IMG/VR virus record: IMGVR_UViG_3300014691_000055
DNA from: a virus
Taxonomy: Duplodnaviria; Heunggongvirae; Uroviricota; Caudoviricetes
Strand: one strand, 5' to 3'
DNA length: 13,664 nucleotides
The position numbers were made by a program, and so were the translations under genes. The stretch's first letter is position 1. The number at the start of each line of letters is the position of its first letter. The notes beneath the pieces are model-generated. The model was not told where the DNA came from. It ran no database searches and saw only the letters and a program-made list of their open reading frames with translations. This document shows, piece by piece, positions 1,249 through 13,664 of this stretch.

Positions 1249-1256
1249 ACGTAAAC

Positions 1257-1301
1257 TTTTTCCGGTTGTTGTCGATAGCTCTATATCCCTCAACCGGAAA
1301 A
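1257..1301. repeat. 11-bp perfect inverted repeat (TTTTCCGGTTG ... CAACCGGAAAA) with ~23-nt spacer just after the cscB stop; possible terminator-like or protein-binding hairpin
   Basis: Arms are exact reverse complements read directly from sequence; no U-tract follows, so not a canonical intrinsic terminator. Confidence 0.4.
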
Positions 1302-1689
1302 TAATAATAGTAAAATGCTTAGCCCTGCTAATAATCGCCTAATCCAAACGCCTCATTCATGTTCTGGTACAGTCGCTCAAATGTACTTCAGATGCGCGGT
1401 TCGCTGATTTCCAGGACATTGTCGTCATTCAGTGACCTGTCCCGTGTATCACGGTCCTGCGAATTCATCAAGGAATGCATTGCGGAGTGAAGTATCGAGT
1501 CACGCCATATTTCGCTATCAGGATTCTGTGTGATGGTTACATCGCCCGGCCCAGGGCTGTTTAGTCATCAGCGCTTTCTGACAGTGCTGAGATTTCAACC
1601 TGTTGCAGTAAAAATGAGTAGATATAAGGCAAGTGTGCTGCCAAACCCATCTTTTACGGGGTGAAGGTAGATTTCGTTTGAAGGGTATC

Positions 1690-1704
1690 TGGTGTCCCCT
1701 GCAG
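1690..1704 (-). other. att-like core: 15 nt identical to reverse complement of the 3' end of tRNA-Arg(CCU) argW (CTGCAGGGGACACCA)
   Basis: tggtgtcccctgcag read in sequence; match to argW 3' end is from memory of the tRNA sequence; flanked by a 7-bp inverted repeat (cccctgc / gcagggg at 1695..1727). Confidence 0.55.
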
Positions 1705-1761
1705 ACATCTACTTGAAGCAGCAGGGGATTGATTGGAATGGTGTTTTTTAGATGTGAGAAA

Positions 1762-1783
1762 TATTTTACCCGCTATTTTACCC
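1762..1783. repeat. Direct repeat tattttaccc x2 (1762..1771, 1774..1783), candidate arm-type recombinase binding sites near the att core
   Basis: Exact 10-bp direct repeat spaced 12 bp, ~60 bp from att-like core, overlapping 3' end of the alpA-like ORF. Confidence 0.3.
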
Positions 1784-1978
1784 ATTGGCGCGGCTTAAGA
1801 GCTTATTTTTGAATTCACAATGATCACGATATAACCATCTTGCTCGCCCGTGGATAACTTTGGCTTTAGGCAGGTCGCCGGACTTAATCCGGTCATAGAT
1901 GAAGGTCTTACCGAAGCCAGTATCGGCCATGATGAATTTCAAATCAACCAGTGAATCAGGTTGTAGTTCGTGTTGCAT
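1778..1978 (-). CDS. AlpA-family phage transcriptional regulator / excisionase-like DNA-binding protein (66 aa)
   Basis: ATG start (rc of 1976..1978) with GGAGA SD; translation has the AlpA-type motif FIMADTGFGKTFIYDRIKSGDLPKAKVIHGRARW. Confidence 0.7.
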   Translation of the reverse strand: MQHELQPDSLVDLKFIMADTGFGKTFIYDRIKSGDLPKAKVIHGRARWLYRDHCEFKNKLLSRANG

Positions 1979-1997
1979 GAGTGCTATCTCCGAATAG

Positions 1998-2013
1998 GGA
2001 ATCGAACCTGCAA
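1998..2013 (-). other. 16-nt fragment identical to reverse complement of the argW T-arm (TTGCAGGTTCGATTCC); tRNA-derived remnant, not a tRNA gene
   Basis: ggaatcgaacctgcaa read in sequence; no D-arm or anticodon arm follows, sequence to the right is an A/T-rich terminator. Confidence 0.45.
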
Positions 2014-2023
2014 ATCAGGTAAT

Positions 2024-2048
2024 AAAAAACCGCCATCAGGCGTTTTTG
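2024..2048. terminator. Short bidirectional intrinsic terminator-like hairpin (aaaaaCCGCC atca GGCGttttt)
   Basis: GC stem (4 bp) extended by A-run/T-run pairing, T-tract on + strand and A-tract giving U-tract on - strand; overlaps stop codon of the 55-aa ORF. Confidence 0.4.
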
Positions 2049-2203
2049 TGTTCTTTCAGTTCTTCAATTCGAATATTGGTTACGTCTGCATGTGCTATCT
2101 GCGCCCATATCATCCAGTGGTCATAGCAGTCGTTGATGTCCTCTGCTTCGATAACTCTGTTGAATGGCTCTCCATTCCATTCACCTGTGACTCGGAAGTG
2201 CAT
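2036..2203 (-). CDS. Hypothetical small protein (55 aa, MHFRVTGEWNGEPFNRVIEAEDINDCYDHWMIWAQIAHADVTNIRIEELKEHKNA); absent from supplied ORF track (below length cut-off)
   Basis: Hand-translated: ATG (rc 2201..2203) preceded by GGAGA SD 7 nt upstream, stop TGA (rc 2036..2038) inside terminator hairpin. Confidence 0.5.
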   Translation of the reverse strand: MHFRVTGEWNGEPFNRVIEAEDINDCYDHWMIWAQIAHADVTNIRIEELKEHKNA

Positions 2204-2390: not shown

Positions 2391-2921
2391 TCATTTGCCA
2401 TCCTGCTGCGGCGGTTCTGGTAGCGGCATCCAGTGAGTTGCCTGCTCAATGCCATTACCCGGCTTAATCGTTGCTTGTCCTCGCCGAAAGGTACTTCCGG
2501 TATTGCGTGCGGAGCATATTAGCGGCTCAACCAGATCACTATCGAAATTCACCGAAATAAGTACGTTCTGATTCTTTTTCGGCATTCGCTCACTACAGCT
2601 TATCCAACCATCCGGAATTACCGCCACTGGCTTGGCGGTATAAAGCGGTGTTATATCTGCCCGAAAATTACATGCTTTATGCAGCCGCACCCACCGTTCG
2701 ACTTCTGCTTTGTCAGAATACATACCAGTGAACGTGTTATATTCACGGTCAATTTTCGTGAATGTTACCTTCCACGCCACCGGCTCTGCTTCCAGCGATG
2801 CCAGCGCAATCCGTGCCAGTTCTTCCGCTTCTTCTGCTGGCAGTACAACGTTGCTACCAGGTCCGTATGTTTCGCGCCACTGCTTGATTGTCCGCAGTCG
2901 CTCTTTGGTAATAGTGGTCAT
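2391..2921 (-). CDS. Phage protein with C-terminal DUF551-like domain (176 aa)
   Basis: ATG start overlapping upstream stop (ATGA at 2918..2921); C-terminal motif WISCSERMPKK...HWMPLPEPP typical of DUF551 phage proteins (from memory). Confidence 0.7.
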   Translation of the reverse strand: MTTITKERLRTIKQWRETYGPGSNVVLPAEEAEELARIALASLEAEPVAWKVTFTKIDREYNTFTGMYSDKAEVERWVRLHKACNFRADITPLYTAKPVAVIPDGWISCSERMPKKNQNVLISVNFDSDLVEPLICSARNTGSTFRRGQATIKPGNGIEQATHWMPLPEPPQQDGK

Positions 2922-3283
2922 GCCGTAACCCCTTCTTGATATTTTTCAAACCAGAACACAACCGGGTCAGATTTCATTTCAACCAATCCCATACGAACCA
3001 GCGCTTTGCCTTTCCCGGACGCAAGAAATTCACGACGACCATCACTGATAATTCGCCGATAATCTTCCAGGCTACTGCAATGCTTGTGCAGATTGCATGG
3101 GTGGCATGCCGGAACCATGTTGGATATATCGTCACGTTCCTGGTGAAGCATATTCCCAGCAAAACGAATGACCGGTTTTACATGGTCTGCATGCCACTTT
3201 TCGCCAAGTTCGCAGCCGCAATAAGCACAGCGACCGCCGAACTTCATGCGCAGCTCTGCACGTTGTTTTTTCGTCAGTGCCAT
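2918..3283 (-). CDS. HNH endonuclease (approx 121 aa from ATG at 3283; track ORF begins at upstream TTG 3373)
   Basis: CAYCGC...HADHV...ACHPCNLHKH zinc-finger/HNH motifs; ATG at rc 3281..3283 with AAGGAA SD; stop overlaps next gene start. Confidence 0.72.
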   Translation of the reverse strand: MALTKKQRAELRMKFGGRCAYCGCELGEKWHADHVKPVIRFAGNMLHQERDDISNMVPACHPCNLHKHCSSLEDYRRIISDGRREFLASGKGKALVRMGLVEMKSDPVVFWFEKYQEGVTA

Positions 3284-3284
3284 T

Positions 3285-3503
3285 TCAGTTTTCCTTATAT
3301 GGATTAATTTTATTGTGCAGTGTATTGAACGACGCCCATACCACGTCGTTATACAATTCAATAACTGGCTCAATTATTTTCCCGATTGCCCAGACAAAAA
3401 TTAGCGGGGATATCGGTATCATCAACACGATAAACAGAATGAGAAACAGGAATTCTGTTGTTCTACTCTTTCGTGGATATTTTTTTCTGAATAATGTGAC
3501 CAT
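3285..3503 (-). CDS. Hypothetical small membrane protein (72 aa, one predicted TM helix FLFLILFIVLMIPISPLIFVWAIG)
   Basis: ATG at rc 3501..3503; stop 1 nt before the HNH start, so operon-packed; SD weak and ~26 nt upstream behind a GC hairpin. Confidence 0.45.
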   Translation of the reverse strand: MVTLFRKKYPRKSRTTEFLFLILFIVLMIPISPLIFVWAIGKIIEPVIELYNDVVWASFNTLHNKINPYKEN

Positions 3504-3636
3504 TCATTACCGCCCTTTCGGGCGGCCTCCTGATGTTCTGAGGGTGCAGAAAACCCTCCGGTTAAGGATTTAATAAAAATCACTTCTGATTTAAATTTTC
3601 AGTGTTTTGTTGTCAGGTGGTTTATCGCCTTTATGC

Positions 3637-3942
3637 TTAAGCCTTATTTCTCAGCCATACACAAACAGGACCATCTTCAGTGTCATGAATGGAACCAATG
3701 AACCAACCTTCACCTTCCGGGCTCTCCGGTTTCCAGGAGGCAATATCGGGACCATCCGCGTCCAGATTAAAATCATCTTCATCCATAGTTCTGATGGTCC
3801 ATTGAAGATTATTTTCCTCCATCCAGGCGTTAAACTCTTCCGTTGAAATATGTTCTCTACCATCACAGAATTTTTCATATTCAGGATGCGTCCAGCAGCC
3901 ATATTCATCACGTACTACTGGTATTTCTTTAATTTCATTCAT
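3637..3942 (-). CDS. Hypothetical acidic phage protein (101 aa)
   Basis: ATG with GGGAGA SD; overlaps upstream gene by 8 nt; family not recognised. Confidence 0.55.
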   Translation of the reverse strand: MNEIKEIPVVRDEYGCWTHPEYEKFCDGREHISTEEFNAWMEENNLQWTIRTMDEDDFNLDADGPDIASWKPESPEGEGWFIGSIHDTEDGPVCVWLRNKA

Positions 3943-4189
3943 TTCTGTTCTCCCACGTTTTCAGACTTTCACCACAGAACGGGCAAAATGAAACTCGTAT
4001 TGGTGATTTAGAAAATTCACCGGAACGCAACATCACCAAATCAGGTCCACGAGTTAAACTCTCATTCCAGATTTTGTATATCAGCAGACCCTTTCGCGTC
4101 GTGCATTCAGCATCATGCTCAAGAGACTTTGCCAGTGCTGCACATGGTTCTATCTTGTTGCTATTAATTTGGCATTTTGACTCACTCAC
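3935..4189 (-). CDS. Hypothetical Cys-containing small protein (84 aa, C-terminal CPFCGE, possible zinc ribbon), GTG start
   Basis: GTG (rc 4187..4189) preceded by AAGGAGG SD at 6-nt spacing; start overlaps methyltransferase stop (GTGAGTGA). Confidence 0.5.
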   Translation of the reverse strand: MSESKCQINSNKIEPCAALAKSLEHDAECTTRKGLLIYKIWNESLTRGPDLVMLRSGEFSKSPIRVSFCPFCGESLKTWENRNE

Positions 4190-4667
4190 TGGTCGCCTCC
4201 TTCACAAAAATAATCCAGTGTGTTTTATCGTTCTTGCCGGTACGCTGGCTGATAACTGGTTTCGCGTTGGTTAGTGCCAATATCTGGCTAACCGGTATTT
4301 GCGTTTCATTCCATTTAAATATCAGAACGCCATGTGGACACAACACACGAAAGGCTTCTATAAATCCCTGTCGCAAATCATCACGCCAGGTATCTTTATT
4401 CAGCCGTCCATACTTCTTTCCCATCCAGGCGTTATCACCAACACGCTCAAGATGCGGAGGGTCGAATACAACAACCGGAAACGACGCGTCTGCAAACGGC
4501 AGCGCACGAAAATCAGCGATAATGTCAGGACTAATAATCAGTTGTCGTCCATCACATAGCGTATGTTTCTCTTTCCGGATATCGCTAAATATCGCCCGGT
4601 CGTCATTCTTATCAAACCAGAACATGCGGCTGCCGCAGCACATATCAAGAATGGCCGGTGCGCTCAC
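4182..4667 (-). CDS. Orphan phage DNA methyltransferase (161 aa; motif I LDMCCGS, motif IV DPPH), GTG start
   Basis: Translation shows AdoMet-binding and DPP[HY] catalytic motifs; GTG start with AGGAGGTGA SD, GTGA overlap with upstream stop; no cognate restriction gene adjacent. Confidence 0.72.
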   Translation of the reverse strand: MSAPAILDMCCGSRMFWFDKNDDRAIFSDIRKEKHTLCDGRQLIISPDIIADFRALPFADASFPVVVFDPPHLERVGDNAWMGKKYGRLNKDTWRDDLRQGFIEAFRVLCPHGVLIFKWNETQIPVSQILALTNAKPVISQRTGKNDKTHWIIFVKEATSE

Positions 4668-5086
4668 AGCATCACCTCCTGATAATTACCCTGATAGAAC
4701 GCCAGCACGCGCTGCATAACCTCGCTCTTCCGGCACTCGCGACAGATTATGTTCTGACGCCTGTCGTAGCGGCGTATTTCTCCGTCAGGTAATGACCAGA
4801 TAAGGTCCGGATCAACCACAACCGGTTTCTTCAGCTTTGCCCTCGATAATTTTTTGCGGGCATTTTGCCAGTCTTTACGAGCCTGTTCAGACGGGAATAA
4901 CCCGTAGCCAGAATTGTATACATCGCCACTGGCAACCAGCTCTCTGGCGAGAACACTCATCAGATATCTTGTCGCACCTGTTTTCGCTTCCAGTTGTCGT
5001 AACGTTTCGCGCCCGCTCTGGCGCACGAGTTCAACAACCTGCCTCTTAATTTTTTCCCGCTCTTCTTGTGTAAATACTTTTGCCAC
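4664..5086 (-). CDS. Hypothetical phage protein (140 aa), possibly replication-associated; GTG start
   Basis: GTG (rc 5084..5086) with AGGAGG SD 5 nt upstream; located immediately downstream of the replication initiator; family not recognised. Confidence 0.55.
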   Translation of the reverse strand: MAKVFTQEEREKIKRQVVELVRQSGRETLRQLEAKTGATRYLMSVLARELVASGDVYNSGYGLFPSEQARKDWQNARKKLSRAKLKKPVVVDPDLIWSLPDGEIRRYDRRQNIICRECRKSEVMQRVLAFYQGNYQEVML

Positions 5087-5126
5087 AAGTCCTCCTGAAA
5101 ATTACCTCATGACCTGAAATAAACAC

Positions 5127-6197
5127 TTACCCCCTGAAGCCCGGTGGAATTTCGGTATCCGGTTCAGAAATATGATTCACACAACGCTGGTTGTTCGTGC
5201 CGCTTACCGGGAGCAACCAGGGGTTTTCAAAATTCCGGTCCGGTCCAAAAAACGTCGTCGCTCGCTGAACAAATTCCGTTCCCGTTTTCCCGGTAGCCGC
5301 TAGGTATCTTGCGTAACGCCTCACACCATCCAGCATGGCCTCTGGTGGCACCCCCTCGCGTAATCTGGCCTTCCAGGCACTGAAAGCGGATTTCTTCGGG
5401 TTTGCCCCGGCACGCAACGGGTATTCCCGCCAGACCTGTTCGAACACATCCGGATAATACACTCGTCCCACAGGCTGCCCGGTGTTTTCCGGGACTACCC
5501 GATCGGCTTCCCGCTGAATGGCGGAATCGGCTTCAGGCTGCTGCAGTTGGTGTGATTGCTCCGGCCTTGCGGTCATCACCTGCTGCACAGCGCCCGAATC
5601 GGCTTTCAGCGCATACGCTGAATCGGCTTCCGGTGTCGTGCCTGCTGGCTGACCAGGATTGACGGTCTGAACATCCCCTGCCTGGTTCGTGGCGTTTTTT
5701 ACGCCATGGACCATAGTGTTTTGATCTTCTTGATCTGTATCTTTATCTGTATCTTTATCTGTCGTGACTCGTCGTGACATGTGCGTGACATTTCGTGACG
5801 CGCCGTGACAATCTCCATTTTGTTCCCGCTTTCTTTCCCTCTCTCGCTGCGCCCTCTTGCGCTCTGCAGGAGATTTTGCGGTTTGCGAAATATTGCCGTT
5901 GTCCTCTTTAAGCACCTGGCGTTTTTCCCATCCAGTGATTAAATCACCATCAAGTACCCGCCCCTGCATCGTCTGCAAAATTGAATCAATTACCTCTTCT
6001 GTCACGTCGAGCGCACTTGCCAAATCTTCTGTCGTGACATCAATGTGACCTCGCGTGACATTTCGTGACGCGCTCACCAGGAGGTGGATATACACTGCCA
6101 TCACTGTTGCAATTGGCTGCCCTGACACCCTGGCAATTGTTCGCCACTTAGGGTCATTTGGCATGTCATGCCATAATCTGAGCCAGGCGTTAGCCAT
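5127..6197 (-). CDS. Phage replication initiation protein (lambda O-like replisome organiser) with origin iterons embedded in coding sequence
   Basis: Start chosen at ATG rc 6195..6197 (SD AGAGGTGA) rather than track GTG at 6203; N-terminal HTH-like region, low-complexity middle, conserved C-terminal region; two clusters of CGTGAC repeats inside the gene. Confidence 0.7.
   Translation of the reverse strand: MANAWLRLWHDMPNDPKWRTIARVSGQPIATVMAVYIHLLVSASRNVTRGHIDVTTEDLASALDVTEEVIDSILQTMQGRVLDGDLITGWEKRQVLKEDNGNISQTAKSPAERKRAQRERERKREQNGDCHGASRNVTHMSRRVTTDKDTDKDTDQEDQNTMVHGVKNATNQAGDVQTVNPGQPAGTTPEADSAYALKADSGAVQQVMTARPEQSHQLQQPEADSAIQREADRVVPENTGQPVGRVYYPDVFEQVWREYPLRAGANPKKSAFSAWKARLREGVPPEAMLDGVRRYARYLAATGKTGTEFVQRATTFFGPDRNFENPWLLPVSGTNNQRCVNHISEPDTEIPPGFRG
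5735..5809. repeat. Iteron cluster 1: tandem 12-bp ctgtatctttat x2 followed by five CGTGAC motifs at 10-11 bp spacing (5763, 5773, 5784, 5794, 5804)
   Basis: Read directly; helical-phase spacing; followed by 50-nt polypyrimidine tract 5811..5860. Confidence 0.6.
6001..6073. repeat. Iteron cluster 2: GTCACG / CGTGAC motifs at 6001, 6033, 6054, 6064 plus GTGAC at 6046; contains 21-nt exact copy gcgtgacatttcgtgacgcgc (6053..6073) of 5783..5803
   Basis: Exact 21-nt repeat 270 bp apart verified by position-by-position reading. Confidence 0.6.
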
Positions 6198-6268
6198 ACT
6201 CACCTCTTTTGATACCGAATCTTTTTACTCACAAATTGCCGGAAGTGATCCGGTATGAATATTGCGAG

Positions 6269-6694
6269 TCAATGCACAGCCACAATATTTCCTGCAGGGC
6301 CACCACGATTCATCTGGTTGAAACCAGCGATCGCCACTGCGACAAAATCATCAGCGTCTCTCACCAGTCGTTCCCGCGTCTCCACTAGTTCCCGAAAATA
6401 GGCTGAGCTATGGCTGCGCATTCGGGCCACCAGCAGAGGTGGCATTGCTTTTTCGATAGCTGGTAACAACGCCTGAATTTTTTTAACCGCATCAGGGGTG
6501 TCTTTCTCCACCCAGCGGAAAATTTTCTGAGTATTGCGAGCCATGGCTTCCGGATGGCTGTCGTCATACAGTTCCGGGAACGTCATTCCCAGCTCGAAAT
6601 ACGCTTTGGTAATTTTCGCAGCCGGTACTTTTTCGCCGTCCGGATGCGCCCAGGCATTCATCGCCATGCGGATGTGTTCATGCTTGATTTTCAT
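6269..6694 (-). CDS. YdaT-like protein (CII-like regulator; formerly annotated as toxin YdaT), approx 141 aa from ATG 6694
   Basis: MKIKHEHI... N-terminus and ...VH C-terminus resemble Rac YdaT (memory); ATG at 6694 has AAGGGGGGA SD; alternative upstream ATG 6766 would extend overlap. Confidence 0.65.
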   Translation of the reverse strand: MKIKHEHIRMAMNAWAHPDGEKVPAAKITKAYFELGMTFPELYDDSHPEAMARNTQKIFRWVEKDTPDAVKKIQALLPAIEKAMPPLLVARMRSHSSAYFRELVETRERLVRDADDFVAVAIAGFNQMNRGGPAGNIVAVH

Positions 6695-6920
6695 GAATCC
6701 CCCCTTGGTTAGAAGGCGGATTATGATCAGAACCGGGAATGACAACCGTCGGTATGTGTAACTCATATTTGAGCGCCCCGGCAGTGACTGCCTGAATTAG
6801 CAACGCCCATTTCCACGGAACCTCTTCCCCCCACATGCTGACTGTGGTTTTTGACGTTCCTAGAGCTGCGGCTGTTTTAACAACTCCGCCAAAATAGCCT
6901 AATACTTCTGATTTTTTCAT
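6678..6920 (-). CDS. YdaS-like Cro-type HTH regulator (80 aa)
   Basis: ATG rc 6918..6920 with GGAGCG SD; motif GGVVKTAAALGTSKTTVSMWGEEVPW typical of YdaS/Cro-like HTH; divergent from cI-like gene. Confidence 0.68.
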   Translation of the reverse strand: MKKSEVLGYFGGVVKTAAALGTSKTTVSMWGEEVPWKWALLIQAVTAGALKYELHIPTVVIPGSDHNPPSNQGGIHENQA

Positions 6921-7011
6921 GAGTCGCTCCATAAAACTGAACGCCAAAAGTTTAATAATCAAAACCGAAGAAAGTCAAGAAACAAAACCATCTGTGTTTT
7001 AAAATCAAAAC
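6921..7011. promoter_or_regulatory. Divergent immunity-switch region: PR-like promoter for cro-like gene (-35 TTGACT = rc 6973..6978), PRM-like promoter for cI-like gene (-10 TAAAAT 7000..7005, leaderless), overlapping AAAAC/GTTTT inverted-repeat operators
   Basis: Inverted repeats AAAACTgaacgccaaAAGTTT (6934..6954), AAAACcatctgtGTTTT (6984..7000), GTTTTaaaatcAAAAC (6996..7011); cI ATG has no SD and sits 6 nt after a -10-like hexamer. Confidence 0.5.
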
Positions 7012-7650
7012 ATGAGCAAGCAAACAATATCTGAACGCATAACCCAACGTATGCATGCGCTAAACCTGAAAGGCAAAGACCTTGTCAATGCCACTGGCGC
7101 ATCAAAAGGCTCCGTAAGTCAATGGATGAACGGTGGAGGAGCGCCGTCCTCGCGTTACATAAGTTCACTGGCAAAGATATTGAAAGTAAACGAAAATTGG
7201 CTTCTTAATGGAGGAGAGTTAAATACAGGTGATTCGCTTGATCTATCTTTACCGCCGATAAAAACGGTTCCGCTACTATCACTTCAGCAGGCAGCAAGCT
7301 GGAGTGATTATATGAAAAATTCCTCAATAACCTCTTGTGTGCAGCTTGTCGGAGAAATCCCGGCCAATACCTTTGCAGTTGTTCTAGAGAGTGACAGTAT
7401 GTCAACATCTGGTGGGGGAGTTTCCATCCCAAATGGTTCAACAGTTTTTGTTGATCCCGATCGAACCGTACAACCAGGAAATATTGTCCTTGCCTTGCCC
7501 AAAGGGACCACAACACCTGTCATTCGTAAACTGGAGATTGAAGGGCCGGATATTCTTTTAGTCCCCACGAATCCTCGCTACCCTTCAATTATGCTGGATG
7601 ATCTATCTTGCATATTGGGCGTATGCTTTAAAATTCAACAAGATATTTAA
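7012..7650 (+). CDS. CI-like phage repressor (N-terminal HTH_XRE, C-terminal S24 LexA-like autopeptidase), 212 aa
   Basis: ATG 7012; HTH region GKDLVNATGASKGSVSQWMNG; C-terminal DSMSTSGGG...VIRKL Ser/Lys dyad pattern of S24 peptidases. Confidence 0.82.
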   Translation: MSKQTISERITQRMHALNLKGKDLVNATGASKGSVSQWMNGGGAPSSRYISSLAKILKVNENWLLNGGELNTGDSLDLSLPPIKTVPLLSLQQAASWSDYMKNSSITSCVQLVGEIPANTFAVVLESDSMSTSGGGVSIPNGSTVFVDPDRTVQPGNIVLALPKGTTTPVIRKLEIEGPDILLVPTNPRYPSIMLDDLSCILGVCFKIQQDI

Positions 7651-7714
7651 CCAACCTCATCTATTTGATTAACTGTATGCCATCGTGGTGATGGCTTAAC
7701 AGCTGCCTGCTCAA

Positions 7715-7763
7715 AATGTTTTGATAAAAAAACATTGACCTGAAAAGTTCATTTTTCTAAACT
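7715..7763 (+). promoter_or_regulatory. PL-like promoter (-35 TTGACC 7735..7740, 17-nt spacer, -10 TAAACT 7758..7763) overlapped by inverted repeats AATGTTTT/AAAACATT and GAAAA/TTTTC (candidate OL operators)
   Basis: Hexamers and repeats read from sequence; position between cI-like gene and the rightward small-gene operon. Confidence 0.4.
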
Positions 7764-7941
7764 TCATTCATTCCCTCACCCCACCCCACAGAATGCAGGG
7801 CAATACTTCGAGTTACCAGGCAGTGGTCAGGGGTTAAGTAGCCAGCCCGAGGCGTAAGAACATGACGGCAGGGTTCAACTTTAATAACTATGCAGCAGGT
7901 TTTTGTTCCGCTACCCGGCGTTAAGGGGAAATGAGGTCAAC

Positions 7942-8097
7942 ATGGATACTATCGATCTTGGCAACAACGAATCTCTGGTGTACGGCGTGTTTCCCAACCA
8001 GGACGGCACATTCACCGCGATGACGTATACCAAAAGCAAAACGTTTAAAACCGAAAATGGCGCCCGTCGCTGGCTGGAAAGAAACTCAGGTGAGTGA
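7942..8097 (+). CDS. YdfA-like small protein (DUF1391-type, 51 aa)
   Basis: ATG 7942 with GAGGT SD; translation MDTIDLGNNESLVYGVFPNQDGTFTAMTYTKSKTFKTENGARRWLERNSGE resembles Qin ydfA from memory; track ORF starts at TTG 7903. Confidence 0.6.
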   Translation: MDTIDLGNNESLVYGVFPNQDGTFTAMTYTKSKTFKTENGARRWLERNSGE

Positions 8098-8098
8098 T

Positions 8099-8227
8099 AT
8101 GGATTTCGACACAATCATGGAAAAGGCTTACGAAGAATACTTCGAAGGCCTTGCCGAAGGCGAAGAAGCTCTCAGCTTCAGTGAGTTTAAACAGGCGCTT
8201 TCCAGTTCGACAAAATCTATCGACTAA
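8099..8227 (+). CDS. YdfB-like small protein (42 aa; MDFDTIMEKAYEEYFEGLAEGEEALSFSEFKQALSSSTKSID); not in ORF track
   Basis: Hand-translated; ATG 1 nt after upstream stop (tgaTATG), stop TAA 8225..8227. Confidence 0.5.
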   Translation: MDFDTIMEKAYEEYFEGLAEGEEALSFSEFKQALSSSTKSID

Positions 8228-8238
8228 CGGGGTTAAAG

Positions 8239-8397
8239 ATGGAATTTAAAGATTTACCTCCAGACACTCAGAAAATCGCCGCAGAAACACTGAAATCTCT
8301 CATTTTGAACGGGGAGACAGAAAAGGTAGAGCCAGCTAAAAAACTGGCTCAAGAAATCAGAGAAGCCTTTATTGCTCTTTATCAGTCTTCTCCATAG
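8239..8397 (+). CDS. Hypothetical small protein (52 aa; MEFKDLPPDTQKIAAETLKSLILNGETEK...); possible ydfC-like; not in ORF track
   Basis: Hand-translated; weak SD (GGGG); follows ydfB-like gene by 11 nt. Confidence 0.38.
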   Translation: MEFKDLPPDTQKIAAETLKSLILNGETEKVEPAKKLAQEIREAFIALYQSSP

Positions 8398-8554
8398 CTG
8401 CTTGTTTTTCTTCTTTCAATATATTGCGAATTGTAATAACTGAATTAGCCGCATCTGAAGGGGATGACATTTTGCCAGCCCGAATTAACTCAACTGTTAA
8501 GTTCAAAGCTGCAACAGATGGATAGGTAAATGGGTTAATTAACTTTTCTGACAT
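8369..8554 (-). CDS. Hypothetical small hydrophilic protein (61 aa from ATG 8554) transcribed against the surrounding rightward operon
   Basis: ATG rc 8552..8554 with GGAGG SD at 5-nt spacing; 3' end overlaps the + strand 52-aa ORF by 29 nt; family not recognised. Confidence 0.42.
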   Translation of the reverse strand: MSEKLINPFTYPSVAALNLTVELIRAGKMSSPSDAANSVITIRNILKEEKQAAMEKTDKEQ

Positions 8555-8768
8555 TTTATCCTCCATTGAGGTTCTGGGTTAAAAATGGAGACCAACACGC
8601 TGCCACATGTGGTCGTGCGCCGGACACGGATAAGAATCCGGCACTGACAGTTTACTGAAAGGATATATCCCTGAAAAGTCAGGGCATAACGCGAAAGCGC
8701 ACGGCGAAGTTCGTCTCACTGTACGGTGTCGTTAAATTTAATTCGACCGTGCGCTTCCGGTTGTGGCA

Positions 8769-8959
8769 NNNNNNNNNNNNNNNNNNNNNNNNNNNNNNNN
8801 NNNNNNNNNNNNNNNNNNNNNNNNNNNNNNNNNNNNNNNNNNNNNNNNNNNNNNNNNNNNNNNNNNNNNNNNNNNNNNNNNNNNNNNNNNNNNNNNNNNN
8901 NNNNNNNNNNNNNNNNNNNNNNNNNNNNNNNNNNNNNNNNNNNNNNNNNNNNNNNNNNN
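8769..8959. other. Run of 191 N (assembly gap or masked sequence)
   Basis: Read directly; all track ORFs crossing it (X-containing translations) are artefacts. Confidence 0.99.
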
Positions 8960-9084
8960 CCAGTTGACTTCCGTATTGGTTCTTATGGGTGGGTTCTCTG
9001 TATCCGGCGTTAATTGTTAACTGGTTAACGTCACCTGGAGGCACCAGGCACCGCATCACAAAATTCATTGTTGAGGACGCGATA

Positions 9085-9273
9085 ATGGAAACGTTATTAC
9101 CAAACGTTAATACGTCTGAAGGTTGTTTTGAAATTGGTGTCAGTATCAGTAACCCTGCATTTACTGAAGATGCCATTAATAAGAGAAAACACGAACGGGA
9201 GTTATTAAATCAAATATGCATTGTTTCAATGCTGGCCCGTTTACGTCTGATGCAAAAAGGATACTGGCAATGA
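9085..9273 (+). CDS. Hypothetical small protein (62 aa; METLLPNVNTSEGCFEIGV...)
   Basis: ATG 9085 with GAGGA SD 8 nt upstream; stop overlaps next start (ATGA 9270..9273). Confidence 0.45.
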   Translation: METLLPNVNTSEGCFEIGVSISNPAFTEDAINKRKHERELLNQICIVSMLARLRLMQKGYWQ

Positions 9274-9473
9274 ATACCACATTTGCACTTGTTCTGACGG
9301 TTTTTCTTGTTTCCGGTGAACCGGTTGACATGGTTACTGGCGTATACGACTCAATGAAAGAATGCATGGCTGCCGCAGCGGAACAGAAAATTCCCGGTAA
9401 CTGCTATCCGGTCGATAAAGTTATTCACATGAATAATAACGAAGTCCCGGCAGGATTAAAAACAGCACCGTAA
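9270..9473 (+). CDS. Small exported protein (67 aa) with N-terminal signal-peptide-like segment MNTTFALVLTVFLVSG and two Cys
   Basis: ATG 9270 with AAGGA SD; hydrophobic N-terminus then hydrophilic body; translationally coupled to upstream ORF. Confidence 0.5.
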   Translation: MNTTFALVLTVFLVSGEPVDMVTGVYDSMKECMAAAAEQKIPGNCYPVDKVIHMNNNEVPAGLKTAP

Positions 9474-9553
9474 TTAATATCCGGTTTCATTTTTATATGC
9501 CAGCAATGGCAGGGATTTGTTCACCCTTAAATCTGTAATGAGGTTAAAACAAA

Positions 9554-12025
9554 ATGAGTAAAGTCTTTATTTGCGCCGCCATTCCGGACGAACAGGCAAT
9601 AAAGGAAGAAGGTGCAGTCGCTGTAGCCACTGCCATTGAAGCCGGCGACGAACGCCGCGCCCGTGCCAAATTTACCTGGCAATTCCTGGAGCAATATCCG
9701 GCTGCTCAGGACTGCGCTTATAAATTTCTTGTCTGCGAGGATAAACCCGGCATGCCCCGCCCTGCCATCGACTCCTGGGATACCGAATATATGCAGGAAA
9801 ACCGCTGGGATGAGGAATCCGCTTCCTTTGTTCCGGTCGAACCAGAATCCGATCCGATGAACGTCAATTTTGACAAGCTGTCCCTTGAAGTGCAGAACGC
9901 GGTCCTGGTTAAGTTCGGTACATGTGAAAACATCACCGTTGATATGGCGATTGACGCGCAGGAATTACTGCAGGAAAACGTGGCTACCTTTGACGGGCAT
10001 ATCGTTGAAGCACTGATGAAAACGCCTGAAATTAACGCTATGTATCCGGAACGCAAACTGTTCGCTATCGGATGGGTTAAACACAAATGTAATCCGGGTG
10101 CCAAATGGCCCGAAATTCAGGCTGAATTACGTAACTGGAAAAAACGGCAGGACGCAGAGCGCAAAGAGACTGGAAAATGCACGTCTGTTGTTGATCTCGC
10201 CCGCGCCAGAGTCAATCAACAGAACACTGAAAACTCAGCAGGAAAAATCAACCCAGTCACTGCCGCCATTCGTCGCCAATACAAGCAGACATGGAAAACG
10301 CTGGATGAAGAACTGGCCTACGCTCTCTGGCCTGGCGATATTGATGCCGGAAACATTGACGGCAGCATCCATCGCTGGGCAAAAAATGAAGTTATCGACA
10401 AAGATCGCGAAGACTGGAAGCGCATCTCCGCATCAATGCGCAAACAGCCTGATGCGATTCGCTACAACCGCCAAACTATTTTTGGCCTTGTCCGTGAACG
10501 TCCGATCGACATTCACAAAGATCCTGTAGCGCTGAACAAATACATCACTGAATACCTGGCGACAAAGGGCGTGTTTGAGGATGAAGAAACAGACCAGAGC
10601 ACTGCTGATATTCTCCAGCCGTCAGCAGCACAAACTGATGCAGTGGAAACTGAAGTATCTGATACCCAAAAAAATGAAAGCGCGCTGGAAACTGAACCAT
10701 CTGTAGAGCGTGAGGGACCGTTCTATTTTCTCTTCACCGATAAAGATGGCGAAAAATATGGCCGCGCAAACAAACTTTCTGGTCTGGATAAGGCGCTGGC
10801 TGCAGGGGCTACTGAAATCACGAAAGAAGAATATTTTGCCCGCAAAAACGGTACATACTCAGGTTCACAACAAAATACTGGTACATCTGACACGATCGCA
10901 CAACCAGAGCCGGTAAAAGTTACCGCTGACGAAGTAAACAAAATTATGCAGGCAGCCAATATCAGCCAGCCTGACGCCGATGAACTGCTTGCAGTATCAC
11001 GTGGTGAATTTGTTGCAGGGATTAGCGATCCGAATGATCCGAAATGGGTGAAGGGGATTGAAACCCGCGATTCTGTGAACCAGAACCAGCAAGAAATGGA
11101 ACAGAACGACCAGAAAGCGGAACAAAACAGCCCAAATACGCAACAAAACGAGCCAGAAACGAAACAATCCGAACCAGTAGCACAACAGGAACAGGAAAAA
11201 GTCTGCACCGCCTGCGGTCAGAGCGGTGGCGGCAACTGCCCTGATTGTGGCGCGGTGATGGGCGACGCAACATACCAGGAAACATTCGATGAAGAGAATC
11301 AGGTTGAAGTTCAGGAAAATGATCCGGAGGAAATGGAAGGCGCTGAACATCCACACAAGGAGAACCCTGGCGGCAATCAGCATCACGCCAGCGATAATAA
11401 AACTGGCGAGGCGACAGATCCCTTAATTAAGGTGAACAGTCATCATAAGCTCACATCCACCAGCAGAGCGGGGATTCATCTGATGATCGACCTTGAAACC
11501 ATGGGAAAAAATCCTGATGCCCCGATTATCTCAATAGGTGCAATATTTTTCGAGCCACAAACCGGAGATATGGGACCGGAATTTAGTAAGACTATCGATC
11601 TGGAAACTGCTGGCGGAGTCATTGATCGGGACACCATTAAATGGTGGCTTAAGCAATCACGCGAAGCGCAATCTGCCATTATGACCGATGAAATCCCGTT
11701 AGATGATGCACTGTTACAATTGCGGGAATTTATCGACGAAAACTCCGGTGAATTTTTTGTTCAGGTCTGGGGAAATGGAGCCAACTTCGACAACACGATT
11801 TTGCGCCGTTCATACGAACGGCAGGGGATCCCCTGCCCGTGGCGTTACTACAACGATCGCGATGTACGCACAATCGTTGAGCTGGGGAAAGCCATAGACT
11901 TCGATGCCAGAACGGCTATTCCATTCGAAGGTGAGCGCCATAATGCACTTGATGACGCCCGTTACCAGGCAAAATACGTTTCAGTTATCTGGCAAAAACT
12001 GATCCCGAGTCAGGCTGATTCTTAA
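9554..12025 (+). CDS. RecE-like (exodeoxyribonuclease VIII-like) large protein, 823 aa, whose C-terminal ~185 aa form a DnaQ-like DEDDh 3'-5' exonuclease domain
   Basis: Central region (SRGEFVAGISDPNDPKWVKGIETRD ... CTACGQSGGGNCPDCGAVMGDATYQETFDEENQVEVQENDPEEMEGAEHPH) matches my memory of Rac RecE; C-terminus has Exo I MIDLETMG, Exo II WGNGANFDNTIL, Exo III HNALDDARY. Confidence 0.8.
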   Translation: MSKVFICAAIPDEQAIKEEGAVAVATAIEAGDERRARAKFTWQFLEQYPAAQDCAYKFLVCEDKPGMPRPAIDSWDTEYMQENRWDEESASFVPVEPESDPMNVNFDKLSLEVQNAVLVKFGTCENITVDMAIDAQELLQENVATFDGHIVEALMKTPEINAMYPERKLFAIGWVKHKCNPGAKWPEIQAELRNWKKRQDAERKETGKCTSVVDLARARVNQQNTENSAGKINPVTAAIRRQYKQTWKTLDEELAYALWPGDIDAGNIDGSIHRWAKNEVIDKDREDWKRISASMRKQPDAIRYNRQTIFGLVRERPIDIHKDPVALNKYITEYLATKGVFEDEETDQSTADILQPSAAQTDAVETEVSDTQKNESALETEPSVEREGPFYFLFTDKDGEKYGRANKLSGLDKALAAGATEITKEEYFARKNGTYSGSQQNTGTSDTIAQPEPVKVTADEVNKIMQAANISQPDADELLAVSRGEFVAGISDPNDPKWVKGIETRDSVNQNQQEMEQNDQKAEQNSPNTQQNEPETKQSEPVAQQEQEKVCTACGQSGGGNCPDCGAVMGDATYQETFDEENQVEVQENDPEEMEGAEHPHKENPGGNQHHASDNKTGEATDPLIKVNSHHKLTSTSRAGIHLMIDLETMGKNPDAPIISIGAIFFEPQTGDMGPEFSKTIDLETAGGVIDRDTIKWWLKQSREAQSAIMTDEIPLDDALLQLREFIDENSGEFFVQVWGNGANFDNTILRRSYERQGIPCPWRYYNDRDVRTIVELGKAIDFDARTAIPFEGERHNALDDARYQAKYVSVIWQKLIPSQADS

Positions 12026-12035
12026 TGTTCAACTG

Positions 12036-12069
12036 TCGCCGGTTGTGACTGGTATTCTGCAACCGGCGC
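12036..12069 (+). other. Stem-loop (GCCGGTTG ... CAACCGGC, 14-nt loop) between recE-like gene and xis; possible attenuator or RNase site
   Basis: 8-bp inverted repeat read from sequence; no U-tract. Confidence 0.3.
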
Positions 12070-12097
12070 TCGTCTGATGTAAGAGATAAAGAAATCG

Positions 12098-12349
12098 ATG
12101 AGCGAAGTAATCATGATTGTCTCTCCCGGCAAATGGGTATCCGAAGAGCAGTTAATTGCGCTGAAAGGAATAAAAAAAGGTACGTTAAAAAAGGCCCGGG
12201 AAAAATCGTTTATGGAAGGAAGGGAATATAAGCATGTCGCTCATGACGGTATGCCATGGGATAACAGTCCATGCTTTTACAACCTGGAAGAAATTGATCG
12301 CTGGATTGAGCGCCAGGCATCAGCGAGACCAAGACGTCATCTTACTTGA
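12098..12349 (+). CDS. Excisionase-like protein (lambda Xis-type, 83 aa; alternative ATG at 12113)
   Basis: Position immediately upstream of integrase; GREY motif region resembles lambda Xis DNA-binding fold pattern (memory). Confidence 0.6.
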   Translation: MSEVIMIVSPGKWVSEEQLIALKGIKKGTLKKAREKSFMEGREYKHVAHDGMPWDNSPCFYNLEEIDRWIERQASARPRRHLT

Positions 12350-12368
12350 CTAAAAGCCACACTAACTA

Positions 12369-13664
12369 ATGAGAGAAGTTGAAATGAAATATCCGACAGG
12401 CGTGGAAAACCATGGAGGGAAATTACGTATCTGGTTTGTTTATAAAGGCGTAAGAGTCAGGGAAAATCTGGGGGTTCCTGACACAGCAAAAAACAGGCGC
12501 GTTGCAGGTGAACTACGCTCCTCTGTTTGTTACGCAATAAAAACTGGTGTTTTCGACTATGCAAAACAGTTTCCCTCCTCACGCAATCTGGAAAAATTTG
12601 GTGAGGCCCGACAAGATTTAACCATAAAAGAACTGGCTGAAAAATTTCTGGCACTGAAAGAAACTGAAGTCGCCAAAACATCACTCAACACATACCGTGC
12701 CGTCATCAAAAATATCCTGAGCATAATCGGTGAAAAAAATCTTGCCTCATCGATTAATAAAGAAAAATTACTGGAGGTTCGTAAAGAGCTACTGACTGGA
12801 TACCAGATCCCCAAAAGTAACTATATTGTTACACAACCAGGGAGATCGGCTGTAACTGTAAATAATTACATGACAAATCTTAACGCCGTGTTCCAGTTTG
12901 GTGTTGATAACGGTTACCTGCCAGATAATCCGTTTAAGGGGATCTCGCCATTAAAGGAATCAAGAACCATTCCGGATCCTCTTTCGCGGGAGGAATTTAT
13001 CCGTCTTATCGATGCGTGCAGAAATCAGCAAGCAAAAAATTTATGGTGTGTTTCTGTTTATACTGGCGTTCGCCCTGGTGAGCTGTGTGCACTTGGATGG
13101 GAGGACATAGATCTGAAAAATGGAACAATGATGATCAGGAGAAATTTAGCAAAAGACCGTTTCACGGTACCAAAAACACAGGCGGGAACCAATCGGGTCA
13201 TTCATCTTATTAAGCCAGCAATCGACGCTCTCCGGAGTCAGATGACATTAACGAGACTGAGCAAAGAGCATATCATTGATGTTCACCTCAGAGAGTATGG
13301 CAGAACAGAAAAACAAAAATGCACCTTTGTTTTTCAACCTGAAGTGTCAGCGAGAGTAAAAAATTATGGTGACCATTTTACCGTTGACTCAATAAGGCAG
13401 ATGTGGGACGCAGCGATAAAACGTGCCGGACTCCGCCATCGAAAATCATATCAGTCGAGACATACTTATGCCTGCTGGTCGCTGACAGCTGGTGCTAACC
13501 CGGCATTTATAGCAAACCAGATGGGCCATGCAGATGCGCAAATGGTATTTCAGGTATACGGAAAATGGATGTCTGAAAACAATAATGCACAGGTAGCTTT
13601 GTTAAATACACAGTTAAGCGAGTTTGCCCCAACCATGCCCCATAACGAAGCAATGAAAAATTAA
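12369..13664 (+). CDS. Tyrosine-type site-specific integrase (N-terminal arm-binding DUF3596-like domain plus C-terminal catalytic domain), 431 aa; alternative start ATG 12384
   Basis: C-terminal motifs HTYACWSL...GHADAQMVFQVYGKW (H-x-x-R, catalytic Tyr context); N-terminal KLRIWFVYKGVRVRENLG arm-binding pattern; ORF stop at final window base. Confidence 0.88.
   Translation: MREVEMKYPTGVENHGGKLRIWFVYKGVRVRENLGVPDTAKNRRVAGELRSSVCYAIKTGVFDYAKQFPSSRNLEKFGEARQDLTIKELAEKFLALKETEVAKTSLNTYRAVIKNILSIIGEKNLASSINKEKLLEVRKELLTGYQIPKSNYIVTQPGRSAVTVNNYMTNLNAVFQFGVDNGYLPDNPFKGISPLKESRTIPDPLSREEFIRLIDACRNQQAKNLWCVSVYTGVRPGELCALGWEDIDLKNGTMMIRRNLAKDRFTVPKTQAGTNRVIHLIKPAIDALRSQMTLTRLSKEHIIDVHLREYGRTEKQKCTFVFQPEVSARVKNYGDHFTVDSIRQMWDAAIKRAGLRHRKSYQSRHTYACWSLTAGANPAFIANQMGHADAQMVFQVYGKWMSENNNAQVALLNTQLSEFAPTMPHNEAMKN

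What the first reader, a model, noticed from the sequence alone, without database searches (positions are those of the whole stretch)
1690..2013. Two separate argW-derived fragments in the same orientation flank the alpA-like gene: nested or successive integration scars
1690..1704 is the reverse complement of the last 15 nt of argW, and 1998..2013 is the reverse complement of the adjacent T-arm 16 nt. In an intact tRNA these are contiguous, overlapping by 1 nt; here they are ~293 bp apart with the alpA-like gene between them. A single integration would duplicate a contiguous core, so this suggests either insertion of an alpA cassette into an older att copy, or two elements with different core lengths integrated in tandem at argW. 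The tattttaccc direct repeats at 1762..1783 may be arm-type sites. The intact argW would be expected beyond the integrase, to the right of the window.
Basis: partly seen in the sequence, partly recalled or inferred. Interest (0 to 1): 0.55.

Follow-up and report, generated by a model that had tools for sequence, protein, structure and literature searches.

The report
Prophage end with torI excisionase
Both tRNA-like fragments are built-in parts of a well-studied phage attachment module (KplE1/HK620/Sf6 type), namely the crossover core and a conserved tRNA-like box in front of the excisionase gene torI; they are not scars of two separate integrations, so the locus is ordinary apart from that undescribed box.

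Summary
Window 1690-1704 is the reverse complement of argW nt 61-75, and 1998-2013 is the reverse complement of argW nt 46-61.

The "alpA-like" gene is torI, 100% identical to K-12 TorI, the excisionase of the KplE1/CPS-53, HK620 and Sf6 argW-integrating phages. The 15-mer is their known attR core, annotated pawZ in K-12. The tattttaccc repeats fit IntS arm-type sites.

The 16-mer also sits upstream of torI in K-12 CPS-53, in the Sf6 genome record and in 74 of 79 further E. coli-type loci. It therefore arrives with the phage and does not mark a second integration here. Its 13-nt centre, CAGGTTCGATTCC, recurs just upstream of the torI ribosome-binding site in Salmonella, Erwinia (two tandem copies), Serratia, Citrobacter, Pantoea and Edwardsiella modules. 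Mean pairwise identity there is 95%, against 62% at synonymous sites of torI, so it is under selection.

Its function is unknown. It lies outside the attR fragment used for in vitro excision. I infer a protein-binding site that controls torI.

The integrase at the window's right end is unrelated to IntS and belongs to a Qin-type prophage. The prophage is therefore chimeric, and argW is not expected beyond that integrase.

The parts
1249..1689 (.). Chromosomal flank that directly follows argW in strains without a prophage. It contains a DUF4942 pseudogene fragment at about 1391-1480(-).
   Evidence: A synthetic query of argW plus the reverse complement of window 1411-1689 is contiguous at 100% identity in many E. 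coli; 2621 of 5426 genomes cover at least 80% of it. The DUF4942 fragment is annotated in GPEC79-13-647.
1690..1704 (-). attR core: CTGCAGGGGACACCA, the last 15 nt of argW. It is the crossover region of the IntS/TorI module and equals K-12 'pawZ'.
   Evidence: K-12 annotates pawZ and the CPS-53 boundary here. The published core is CTGCAGGGGACACCAT (PMC2951348; PMC8787464).
1695..1728 (-). Inverted repeat TCCCCTGC / GCAGGGGA (1695-1702 and 1721-1728, 18-nt spacer) that includes part of the core. It is conserved, and the two arms covary in other genera.
   Evidence: Rouxiella CCCCTACA/TGTAGGGG and Edwardsiella TCCCTGCAT/ATGCAGGGA. The spacer is hypervariable among E. coli-type loci. Its role was not established.
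1705..1777 (-). P arm of attR, between the torI stop codon and the core.
   Evidence: The distance from the torI stop to TGCAGG is 74 nt in 16 of 18 sequences compared. It lies within the 135-bp attR substrate used for in vitro excision (PMC3509656).
1762..1783 (-). Two direct repeats, GGGTAAAA(T) on the torI strand. These are candidate IntS arm-type sites, and the second overlaps the torI stop codon.
   Evidence: The same motif recurs around PintS in K-12 attL. All P' arm-type sites share TAAA (PMC2951348 section 8). GCGGGTAAAA is conserved in most of the sequences compared (Emek, Arsenophonus and several Pantoea carry variants). Binding at these two copies was not tested here.
1778..1978 (-). 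torI: the recombination directionality factor (excisionase), also known as the TorR inhibitor.
   Evidence: 66 of 66 residues are identical to K-12 TorI and to PDB 1Z4H. RefSeq annotates it as torI in matching genomes.
1985..1991 (-). torI Shine-Dalgarno region, GGAGATA.
   Evidence: It is conserved together with the box in 7 of 9 aligned lineages.
1998..2013 (-). 'T-box': TTGCAGGTTCGATTCC, equal to argW nt 46-61 (T-stem 5' strand, T-loop and the first 2 nt of the 3' strand). The conserved 13-mer CAGGTTCGATTCC is 1998-2010.
   Evidence: It is annotated in Sf6 only as a putative 'pI' promoter inside boundary sequence bsq2.
2024..2047 (.). Bidirectional terminator-like hairpin (CGCC-ATCA-GGCG flanked by A and T runs). 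It is a mosaic boundary element shared with P22, HK022, 933W and, by annotation, lambda. The torI module begins just after it.
   Evidence: Query positions 1-40 hit many lambdoid phages; the region is annotated 'terminator' in P22 records. Sub-threshold Rfam hits STnc130 and STnc420 align on it.
12098..13664 (+). Non-cognate recombination module at the other end of the window: a DUF1233 excisionase (12098-12349) and a lambda-type integrase (12369-13664).
   Evidence: Pfam families. Similarity to IntS is limited to a 34-residue catalytic-core stretch. The block 4688-13664 is about 95% identical to prophages lying next to rspB.

Best explanation
Window 1690-2013 is the right (attR) end of a KplE1/CPS-53, HK620 or Sf6-type prophage integrated in argW.

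Shown:
- In the free phage the order is T-box, torI, P arm, core, P' arm, intS. Integration by crossover inside the 15-16-nt core leaves torI and one core copy at the end distal to argW.
- The 15-mer at 1690-1704 is that core, and the junction with the chromosome is exact.
- The 16-mer at 1998-2013 is not a second att scar made in this chromosome. It is a phage-borne element at the extreme left edge of the torI-attP-intS module, directly after a lambdoid boundary terminator and 6 nt upstream of the torI Shine-Dalgarno sequence.
- It is kept under purifying selection in many, but not all, lineages of the module.

Inferred:
- The box descends from, or mimics, the argW T arm, which is the left half of attB.
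- It acts as a sequence-specific protein-binding site that controls torI expression. The most plausible binder is the IntS core-binding domain (the box is a perfect copy of the attB left half-site). Less plausibly it is TorI itself (the box contains the GTTCG core of TorI sites).

In this window the module is orphaned. The cognate intS is absent, and the rest of the prophage is fused to a Qin-type lambdoid element.
For: - TorI is 100% identical to K-12 TorI and to PDB 1Z4H.
- K-12 has the same order: T-box, torI, 74-nt P arm, pawZ core.
- Sf6 has T-box, gene 18, attP core, int contiguous. Nineteen phage records cover at least 80% of the region.
- The empty-site junction is exact at 1689/1690.
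- The published core, the five GTTCG-type TorI sites, the arm-type TAAA motif and the separation of xis and int by attP come from PMC2951348, PMC3509656 and PMC8787464.
- The 16-mer is intact in 74 of 79 IMG/VR loci.
- The 13-mer is present in 11 of 19 sequences (9 of 17 lineages) across six genera plus one metagenome-assembled genome (MAG), and is tandemly duplicated in Erwinia phage Midgardsormr38.
- Mean pairwise identity is 95% for the box against 62% at synonymous third positions of the adjacent torI.
- The distance to the ATG is 26-35 nt in different reading frames, so the box is not coding.
- There is no conserved RNA structure.
- In most non-E. coli lineages the phage sequence left of the core is TTCGATGT(A/C)TGCAGG, against argW TTCGATTCCTGCAGG. 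This suggests the T-loop hexamer is part of what IntS reads.
Against: - The function of the box is untested.
- It lies about 230 bp outside the 135-bp attR fragment that suffices for excision in vitro.
- Eight lineages with the same core lack it, so it is dispensable for recombination.
- Its distance to the core varies (301-324 bp), unlike the fixed 74-nt P arm. This argues against a structural role in the intasome.
- Its flanks score below random against a small matrix of 15 TorI sites.
- No sigma-70-like promoter is predicted nearby, so it is unclear what a DNA-bound repressor would act on.
- All modules found target argW, so covariation with the target tRNA could not be tested.
Confidence: 0.85

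Rival explanations
1. One reading: two integration events at this chromosomal argW site (tandem elements with different core lengths, or a torI cassette inserted into an older att copy) left two separate scars.
For: The two fragments are adjacent in tRNA coordinates and share an orientation. The argW-dsdC region is a known hot spot for islands (PMC8787464). A DUF4942 pseudogene fragment lies next to the junction.
Against: The identical arrangement exists in K-12, in the Sf6 genome record and in dozens of other phage and prophage records. The DNA between the fragments is only the cognate RDF gene and its P arm. Strains with an empty site show a single intact argW followed directly by the window's left flank.
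Confidence: 0.02
2. The box is a functionless fossil: a remnant of an ancestral longer attP identity or of an ancient tandem-lysogen deletion, carried passively in the phage lineage.
For: It matches argW exactly. Eight lineages have lost it without losing the module. It is not needed for in vitro excision. The attP side next to the core also keeps T-loop-like TTCGAT, which suggests an older, longer identity block.
Against: Identity is 95% against 62% at neighbouring synonymous sites across lineages whose other non-coding flanks are unalignable. It is tandemly duplicated in an Erwinia phage. The third C of GATTCCC, which is not in argW, is also conserved in most lineages.
Confidence: 0.1
3. The box is a TorI operator, giving autoregulation of the excisionase in the way P4 Vis, P2 Cox and 186 Apl regulate transcription (these comparators are from my own knowledge).
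For: It contains GTTCG, the core of the five mapped TorI sites (PMC2951348). There are two copies with a 16-bp period in Midgardsormr38. TorI is already known to repress PintS.
Against: Thirteen nucleotides are conserved, not five. The flanks score -6 to -10 against a TorI-site matrix, where true sites score -1.6 to +9 and random sequence averages -4.4. The base after GTTCG is A, which occurs in only 1 of the 15 sites used. No promoter is predicted there.
Confidence: 0.18
4. The box is part of a CII-dependent 'pI' promoter, as annotated by homology in the Sf6 record.
For: Sf6 annotates a 28-nt 'pI; possible integrase expression promoter' covering the box. The Sf6 sequence reads TTGC-N5-TTGC there.
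Against: The spacing is N5, not the N6 of lambda CII sites (lambda spacing from my own knowledge). The first TTGC is TTAC in the window and in K-12. The second TTGC is absent in all other genera, while the box is kept. No -35/-10 pair is found. intS has its own mapped promoter (PMC2951348).
Confidence: 0.05
5. The box works in the mRNA, either as an anti-Shine-Dalgarno element (UUCC pairing with GGAG) or as a T-arm mimic that tunes torI translation or processing.
For: It always lies 4-12 nt upstream of the SD. UUCC:GGAG pairing is possible in 7-8 of 9 lineages. In Edwardsiella, P. stewartii and Serratia the box forms a complete T-arm-like hairpin.
Against: The consensus structure is only 4 bp at -1 kcal/mol with no compensatory changes. 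E. coli-type sequences lack the 3' stem strand. Sequence is conserved, not pairing.
Confidence: 0.1

Closest known systems
KplE1 (CPS-53) prophage of E. coli K-12: attR, torI and pawZ
   Same: TorI is 100% identical. The 15-nt core, the 74-nt P arm with two GGGTAAAA repeats, the same 16-mer upstream of torI and the orientation relative to argW all match.
   Different: The chromosomal flank is the csc sucrose locus instead of dsdC, so the 16th core base is G rather than T. No intS or argW lies within the window, and the prophage body is a different, chimeric lambdoid element.
HK620, Sf6, CUS-3 and Kapi1 P22-like phages: xis(torI)-attP-int recombination module
   Same: 96-98% nucleotide identity from the box through the core. 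attP lies between xis and int, so the two genes end up at opposite prophage ends (PMC8787464; PMC2951348).
   Different: Those are intact phages with cognate IntS. Here only the xis-side half of the module remains.
Lambda attR, Xis and pI
   Same: An excisionase gene sits at the distal end of the PL operon next to att, preceded by the same conserved boundary terminator.
   Different: In lambda, xis and int are adjacent on one side of attP, and Xis sites are on the P arm. Here attP separates them and the TorI sites are on the P' arm. No tRNA-derived box is known upstream of lambda xis (my knowledge).
P4 Int/Vis, and P2 Cox / 186 Apl
   Same: A P4-family integrase with a promoter overlapping att, autoregulated by Int and the RDF; RDFs that double as transcription regulators (my knowledge). 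This is the functional model I propose for the box.
   Different: No tRNA T-arm copy next to the RDF gene has been reported for these, to my knowledge. Homology was not tested here beyond the integrase family.

Membership tests
KplE1/HK620/Sf6-type IntS-TorI recombination module (attR end) | A core identical to the 3' end of argW (CTGCAGGGGACACCA) lies exactly at the prophage/chromosome junction. | tested here: met
   (exact 15-mer). (the empty-site junction places the boundary at 1689/1690). The core sequence is given in PMC2951348.
KplE1/HK620/Sf6-type IntS-TorI recombination module (attR end) | The torI-family RDF gene reads toward the core and lies immediately next to it. | tested here: met
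   66 of 66 residues match K-12 TorI and PDB 1Z4H. The stop-to-core distance is 74 nt, as in 16 of 18 relatives.
KplE1/HK620/Sf6-type IntS-TorI recombination module (attR end) | IntS arm-type sites (TAAA-containing GGGTAAAA repeats) are present on the P arm. | tested here: met
   Sequence match at 1762-1783. The motif is defined in PMC2951348 section 8 and conserved across genera. Protein binding was not testable here.
KplE1/HK620/Sf6-type IntS-TorI recombination module (attR end) | A cognate IntS (P4-family) integrase lies next to intact argW at the other prophage end. | tested here: not met
   No tRNA gene in the window. The only integrase is lambda-type and unrelated to IntS, and elsewhere it lies next to rspB. 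Sequence beyond 13664 is unavailable, so IntS elsewhere in the genome cannot be excluded.
Tandem or nested integration scars at a tRNA gene | The second att copy is created in the chromosome and is therefore absent from the free element. | tested here: not met
   The 16-mer is present in the Sf6 genome and other phage records and in K-12 CPS-53.
Tandem or nested integration scars at a tRNA gene | The DNA between the two att copies is a separate element or its remnant. | tested here: not met
   Only torI and its P arm lie between them.
Tandem or nested integration scars at a tRNA gene | A non-functional copy decays at the neutral rate. | tested here: not met
   95% identity against 62% at synonymous sites.
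TorI binding site (I-site) | A GTTCG, GATCG or GTCCG pentamer. | tested here: met
   GTTCG is at window 2003-2007(-). The pentamers come from PMC2951348.
TorI binding site (I-site) | Flanking context like the mapped sites, and actual TorI binding. | tested here: inconclusive
   Flank scores fall below random in a 15-site matrix. The matrix is small and built from related sequences. Binding is not testable with these tools.
Lambda-type CII-dependent pI promoter | A TTGC-N6-TTGC activator site with weak -35/-10 elements, conserved with the gene. | tested here: not met
   Spacing is N5 in Sf6, the first repeat is TTAC here, and the repeats are absent in other genera. The promoter scan finds nothing.

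The most novel reading that the evidence does not exclude
The 13-16-nt T-arm copy upstream of torI is an exapted piece of the phage's own target: a perfect mimic of the left half of attB (the argW T-loop and stem). The integrase's core-binding domain, or another factor, would bind it to keep the excisionase gene silent or timed. Under this reading the module carries a previously unrecognised cis-regulatory site, outside the mapped attR, that couples RDF expression to the recombinase.
Probability: 0.3. Interest if true: 0.5.

Novelty: already known. Interest (0 to 1): 0.3.

Why it matters
For genome annotation, this is a standard attR end of an argW prophage and should not be read as evidence of multiple integrations. 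It also shows that the prophage in this window is a chimera whose excisionase and att site have lost their integrase, so it cannot excise by its own module.

The one point of wider interest is the conserved tRNA T-arm box in front of torI. It lies in one of the best-studied non-lambda recombination modules, yet I found no description of it in the papers available here. If it is a regulatory site, it would add a missing piece to how RDF expression is controlled when int and xis are separated by attP.

Tried and rejected
- **Other T-loop boxes in phages.** I scanned IMG/VR for T-loop + SD + ATG boxes of other tRNAs (GTTCGAVTCC...GGAG...ATG). Of 121 hits, 80 were real tRNA genes and none preceded an RDF-like ORF, so it was uninformative.
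- **Covariation with the target tRNA.** The first IMG/VR protein scan returned only 80 loci with identical TorI. The genome scan and the protein search (160 proteins, with named sources almost entirely Enterobacterales) found only argW-type cores. Six distant IntS homologues from Pseudomonas, Yersinia, Acinetobacter, Salmonella epsilon15 and Rhodobacter phages lack the xis-attP-int order and have no T-loop-like motif upstream of int. The test could not be done.
- **RNA explanations.** RNAalifold gives only a 4-bp, -1 kcal/mol pairing with no covariation. Rfam gives only sub-threshold STnc130 and STnc420 hits driven by the neighbouring terminator.
- **Promoter explanation.** No sigma-70-like site is predicted.
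- **Coding explanation.** The box-to-ATG distances fall in different reading frames.
- **Second copy elsewhere in the phage.** The box is unique in the 39-kb Sf6 genome.
- **Literature.** Panis 2007 (JBC) and Menouni 2013 (PNAS) are not held in the library. What I say about them comes from memory and is marked as such.

Full report
**Observation.** I read argW from E. coli K-12 (L001 2310-2384). Window 1690-1704 is the exact reverse complement of argW nt 61-75, and 1998-2013 is the exact reverse complement of nt 46-61. The two fragments share an orientation and overlap by one tRNA position. They are 293 bp apart, with the ORF 1778-1978(-) between them. Matches of this length to argW are essentially absent from shuffled windows: 15 nt or more in 0.3% of 300 shuffles, and 16 nt in none. 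The window contains no tRNA gene.

**What the gene and the 15-mer are.** The ORF is torI. It is 66/66 identical to K-12 TorI and to PDB 1Z4H, and RefSeq annotates it as torI in the genomes that match this stretch.
- TorI is the recombination directionality factor of the defective prophage KplE1/CPS-53 and of HK620, Sf6, CUS-3 and Kapi1. All of these integrate into the 3' end of argW through the core CTGCAGGGGACACCAT.
- In these phages attP lies between xis (torI) and int, so after integration intS sits next to argW and torI sits at the far end (PMC2951348, PMC3509656 and PMC8787464).
- K-12 shows exactly this layout: argW, intS ... torI, then a 15-nt argW copy annotated as the pseudogene pawZ, at the CPS-53 boundary.
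- To locate the junction, I built the predicted empty site from argW followed by the reverse complement of the window's left flank. It is contiguous at 100% identity in many E. coli, and 2621 of 5426 genomes cover at least 80% of it. The prophage/chromosome boundary is therefore at 1689/1690, and 1690-1704 is the attR core.

**The P arm.** The stretch from the torI stop to TGCAGG is 74 nt here and in 16 of 18 relatives. The two tattttaccc repeats read GGGTAAAA on the torI strand. This matches the motif around PintS in attL and the TAAA signature of IntS arm-type sites.

**The 16-mer is phage-borne.**
- K-12 CPS-53 has the identical TTGCAGGTTCGATTCC at the same place upstream of torI.
- The Sf6 genome has it too, inside 'boundary sequence bsq2', labelled only as a putative 'pI' promoter by homology to HK620.
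- Nineteen phage records cover at least 80% of the region, and 74 of 79 IMG/VR loci with identical TorI carry the intact 16-mer.
- The element therefore comes in with the phage. It cannot be a scar of a second integration at this chromosomal site, and the DNA between the two fragments is simply the cognate RDF gene and its P arm.
- The box sits at the extreme left edge of the torI-attP-intS module, right after a terminator-like hairpin that is a shared mosaic boundary in P22, HK022 and 933W, and in lambda by the P22 record's annotation.

**The 16-mer is selected.** I compared torI homologues from one genome per species and from phages. All have an argW-type core.
- The 13-mer CAGGTTCGATTCC, or a one-mismatch variant, lies 4-12 nt upstream of the torI Shine-Dalgarno sequence in 11 of 19 sequences (9 of 17 lineages). 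These are Escherichia/Shigella, Salmonella phage Emek, Erwinia phage Midgardsormr38 (two tandem copies 16 bp apart), Serratia, Citrobacter, Pantoea, Edwardsiella and a metagenome-assembled genome (MAG).
- Eight lineages lack it.
- Where it is present, mean pairwise identity is 95%, against 62% at synonymous third positions of the adjacent torI. The surrounding non-coding DNA is unalignable.
- In Serratia and one Pantoea the match extends to argW nt 63 and overlaps the core copy by 3 nt. In Edwardsiella and P. stewartii the box forms a complete T-arm-like hairpin. The tidy 1-nt overlap in E. coli is thus a lineage detail and not evidence of a clean insertion into one contiguous copy.

**What the box might do.**
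- Excision in vitro uses a 135-bp attR substrate that starts inside the 3' end of torI, so the box is not required for the reaction. The eight lineages without it confirm it is dispensable for recombination.
- Its distance to the core varies (301-324 bp) while the P arm is fixed. This points to a role in torI expression and away from a structural role in the intasome.
- It is not coding, because the reading frame differs between lineages.
- It has no conserved RNA structure beyond a 4-bp UUCC:GGAG pairing.
- No sigma-70 promoter is predicted.
- The TTGC repeats that motivated the 'pI' label are mis-spaced and not conserved.
- It contains GTTCG, the core of the five mapped TorI sites. Its flanks, however, score below random against a small matrix of 15 TorI sites.
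- It is a perfect copy of the argW sequence immediately left of the core. In most non-E. coli lineages the phage's own sequence left of the core also keeps the T-loop hexamer in register: TTCGATGT(A/C)TGCAGG against argW TTCGATTCCTGCAGG.
- From this I infer that the T-loop region is part of what IntS reads, and that the box is most plausibly a protein-binding site (IntS core-binding domain, then TorI, then another factor) controlling torI. This is inference and nothing here tests binding.
- From memory, Menouni et al. 2013 showed that torI is kept silent by Rho-dependent termination. That paper was not available to check.

**Origin.** The box is almost certainly derived from, or convergent on, the argW T arm. 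An ancient event in the phage lineage (a longer ancestral attP identity, or a deletion in a tandem lysogen) could have produced it, but I could not reconstruct a one-step path. All modules found target argW, so covariation with the target tRNA could not be tested.

**Context in this window.**
- The integrase at 12369-13664 is lambda-type (Arm-DNA-bind_2 and Phage_integrase domains) with its own DUF1233 excisionase. Its only similarity to IntS is a 34-residue catalytic-core stretch.
- The block 4688-13664 is about 95% identical to prophages that sit next to rspB at the Qin site.
- No complete E. coli genome in the collection contains the window as one piece.
- Normal csc-attR-torI prophages are P22-like and continue into ea22, erf, kil, N and cI. 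In the window, after a DUF551 gene and an HNH gene, the sequence runs into the PR-operon genes of another lambdoid phage.
- The prophage is therefore chimeric.

**Verdict.** The finding is real sequence but ordinary biology: the attR end of a known recombination module. The nested-integration reading is not supported. The residual interest is the conserved, apparently undescribed T-arm box upstream of torI.

Noticed in passing
window 2391-13664: The prophage is a chimera. TorI/attR of an argW P22-like phage is joined, via DUF551 and HNH genes, to the replication, immunity, exonuclease, xis and int region of a Qin-type lambdoid prophage whose integrase normally lies next to rspB. No complete E. 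coli genome in the collection holds the window in one piece. An inversion between two prophages, a hybrid prophage or a misassembly would each explain this.
   Followed up: partly
window 1695-1702 and 1721-1728; L098, L099 and others: An inverted repeat, TCCCCTGC...GCAGGGGA, spans the core and the adjacent P arm. Its arms covary across genera (Rouxiella CCCCTACA/TGTAGGGG; Edwardsiella TCCCTGCAT/ATGCAGGGA). The 18-nt spacer is too long for a recombinase overlap region, and the repeat's role is unknown.
   Followed up: partly
window 1703-1720 and the same position in L008-L087: The first six bases of the spacer inside that inverted repeat are hypervariable among E. coli-type modules with identical TorI (tgcttc, cgcttc, cgcgtc, cgcctc, cgcgcc, aacctc). 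The flanks are invariant.
   Followed up: no
L005, L092-L098 (attP/attR just left of the core): In most non-E. coli lineages the phage sequence left of the core is TTCGATGT(A/C), in register with the argW T-loop TTCGATTCC. Similarity between attP and attB therefore extends to argW nt 53, with a 2-3-nt mismatch island. E. coli-type phages have GTAGATGTC instead.
   Followed up: partly
L005 2486-2515 (Erwinia phage Midgardsormr38): Two tandem copies of CAGGTTCGATTCCC, 16 bp apart, lie upstream of the excisionase gene.
   Followed up: partly
window about 1391-1480(-): A DUF4942 pseudogene fragment lies between cscB and the att junction. It is also present directly downstream of argW in strains with an empty site. 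It may be a remnant of an older island at argW; no further att copy lies in the window.
   Followed up: partly
window 1928-2055(+) and 2020-2067(-): Sub-threshold Rfam matches to the Salmonella sRNA candidates STnc130 (28 bits; gathering score 55; antisense to the torI start and the box) and STnc420 (22 bits; gathering score 70). Both are anchored on the bidirectional terminator. This is a lead for an antisense transcript over the torI start, not evidence of one.
   Followed up: partly
L106 3001-4567 (Proteus hauseri): An unusual compact arrangement: argW(-), an intS-like gene (-, 395-codon open frame) and a torI homologue (+) converging on it. There is no att core after torI and no T-box. The Proteus argW T stem is ACAGG/CCTGT.
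   Followed up: no
window 6289-6299: An 11-nt match to argW nt 58-68 (TTCCTGCAGGG) on the + strand. Matches of this length occur in 25% of shuffles, so it is chance.
   Followed up: yes
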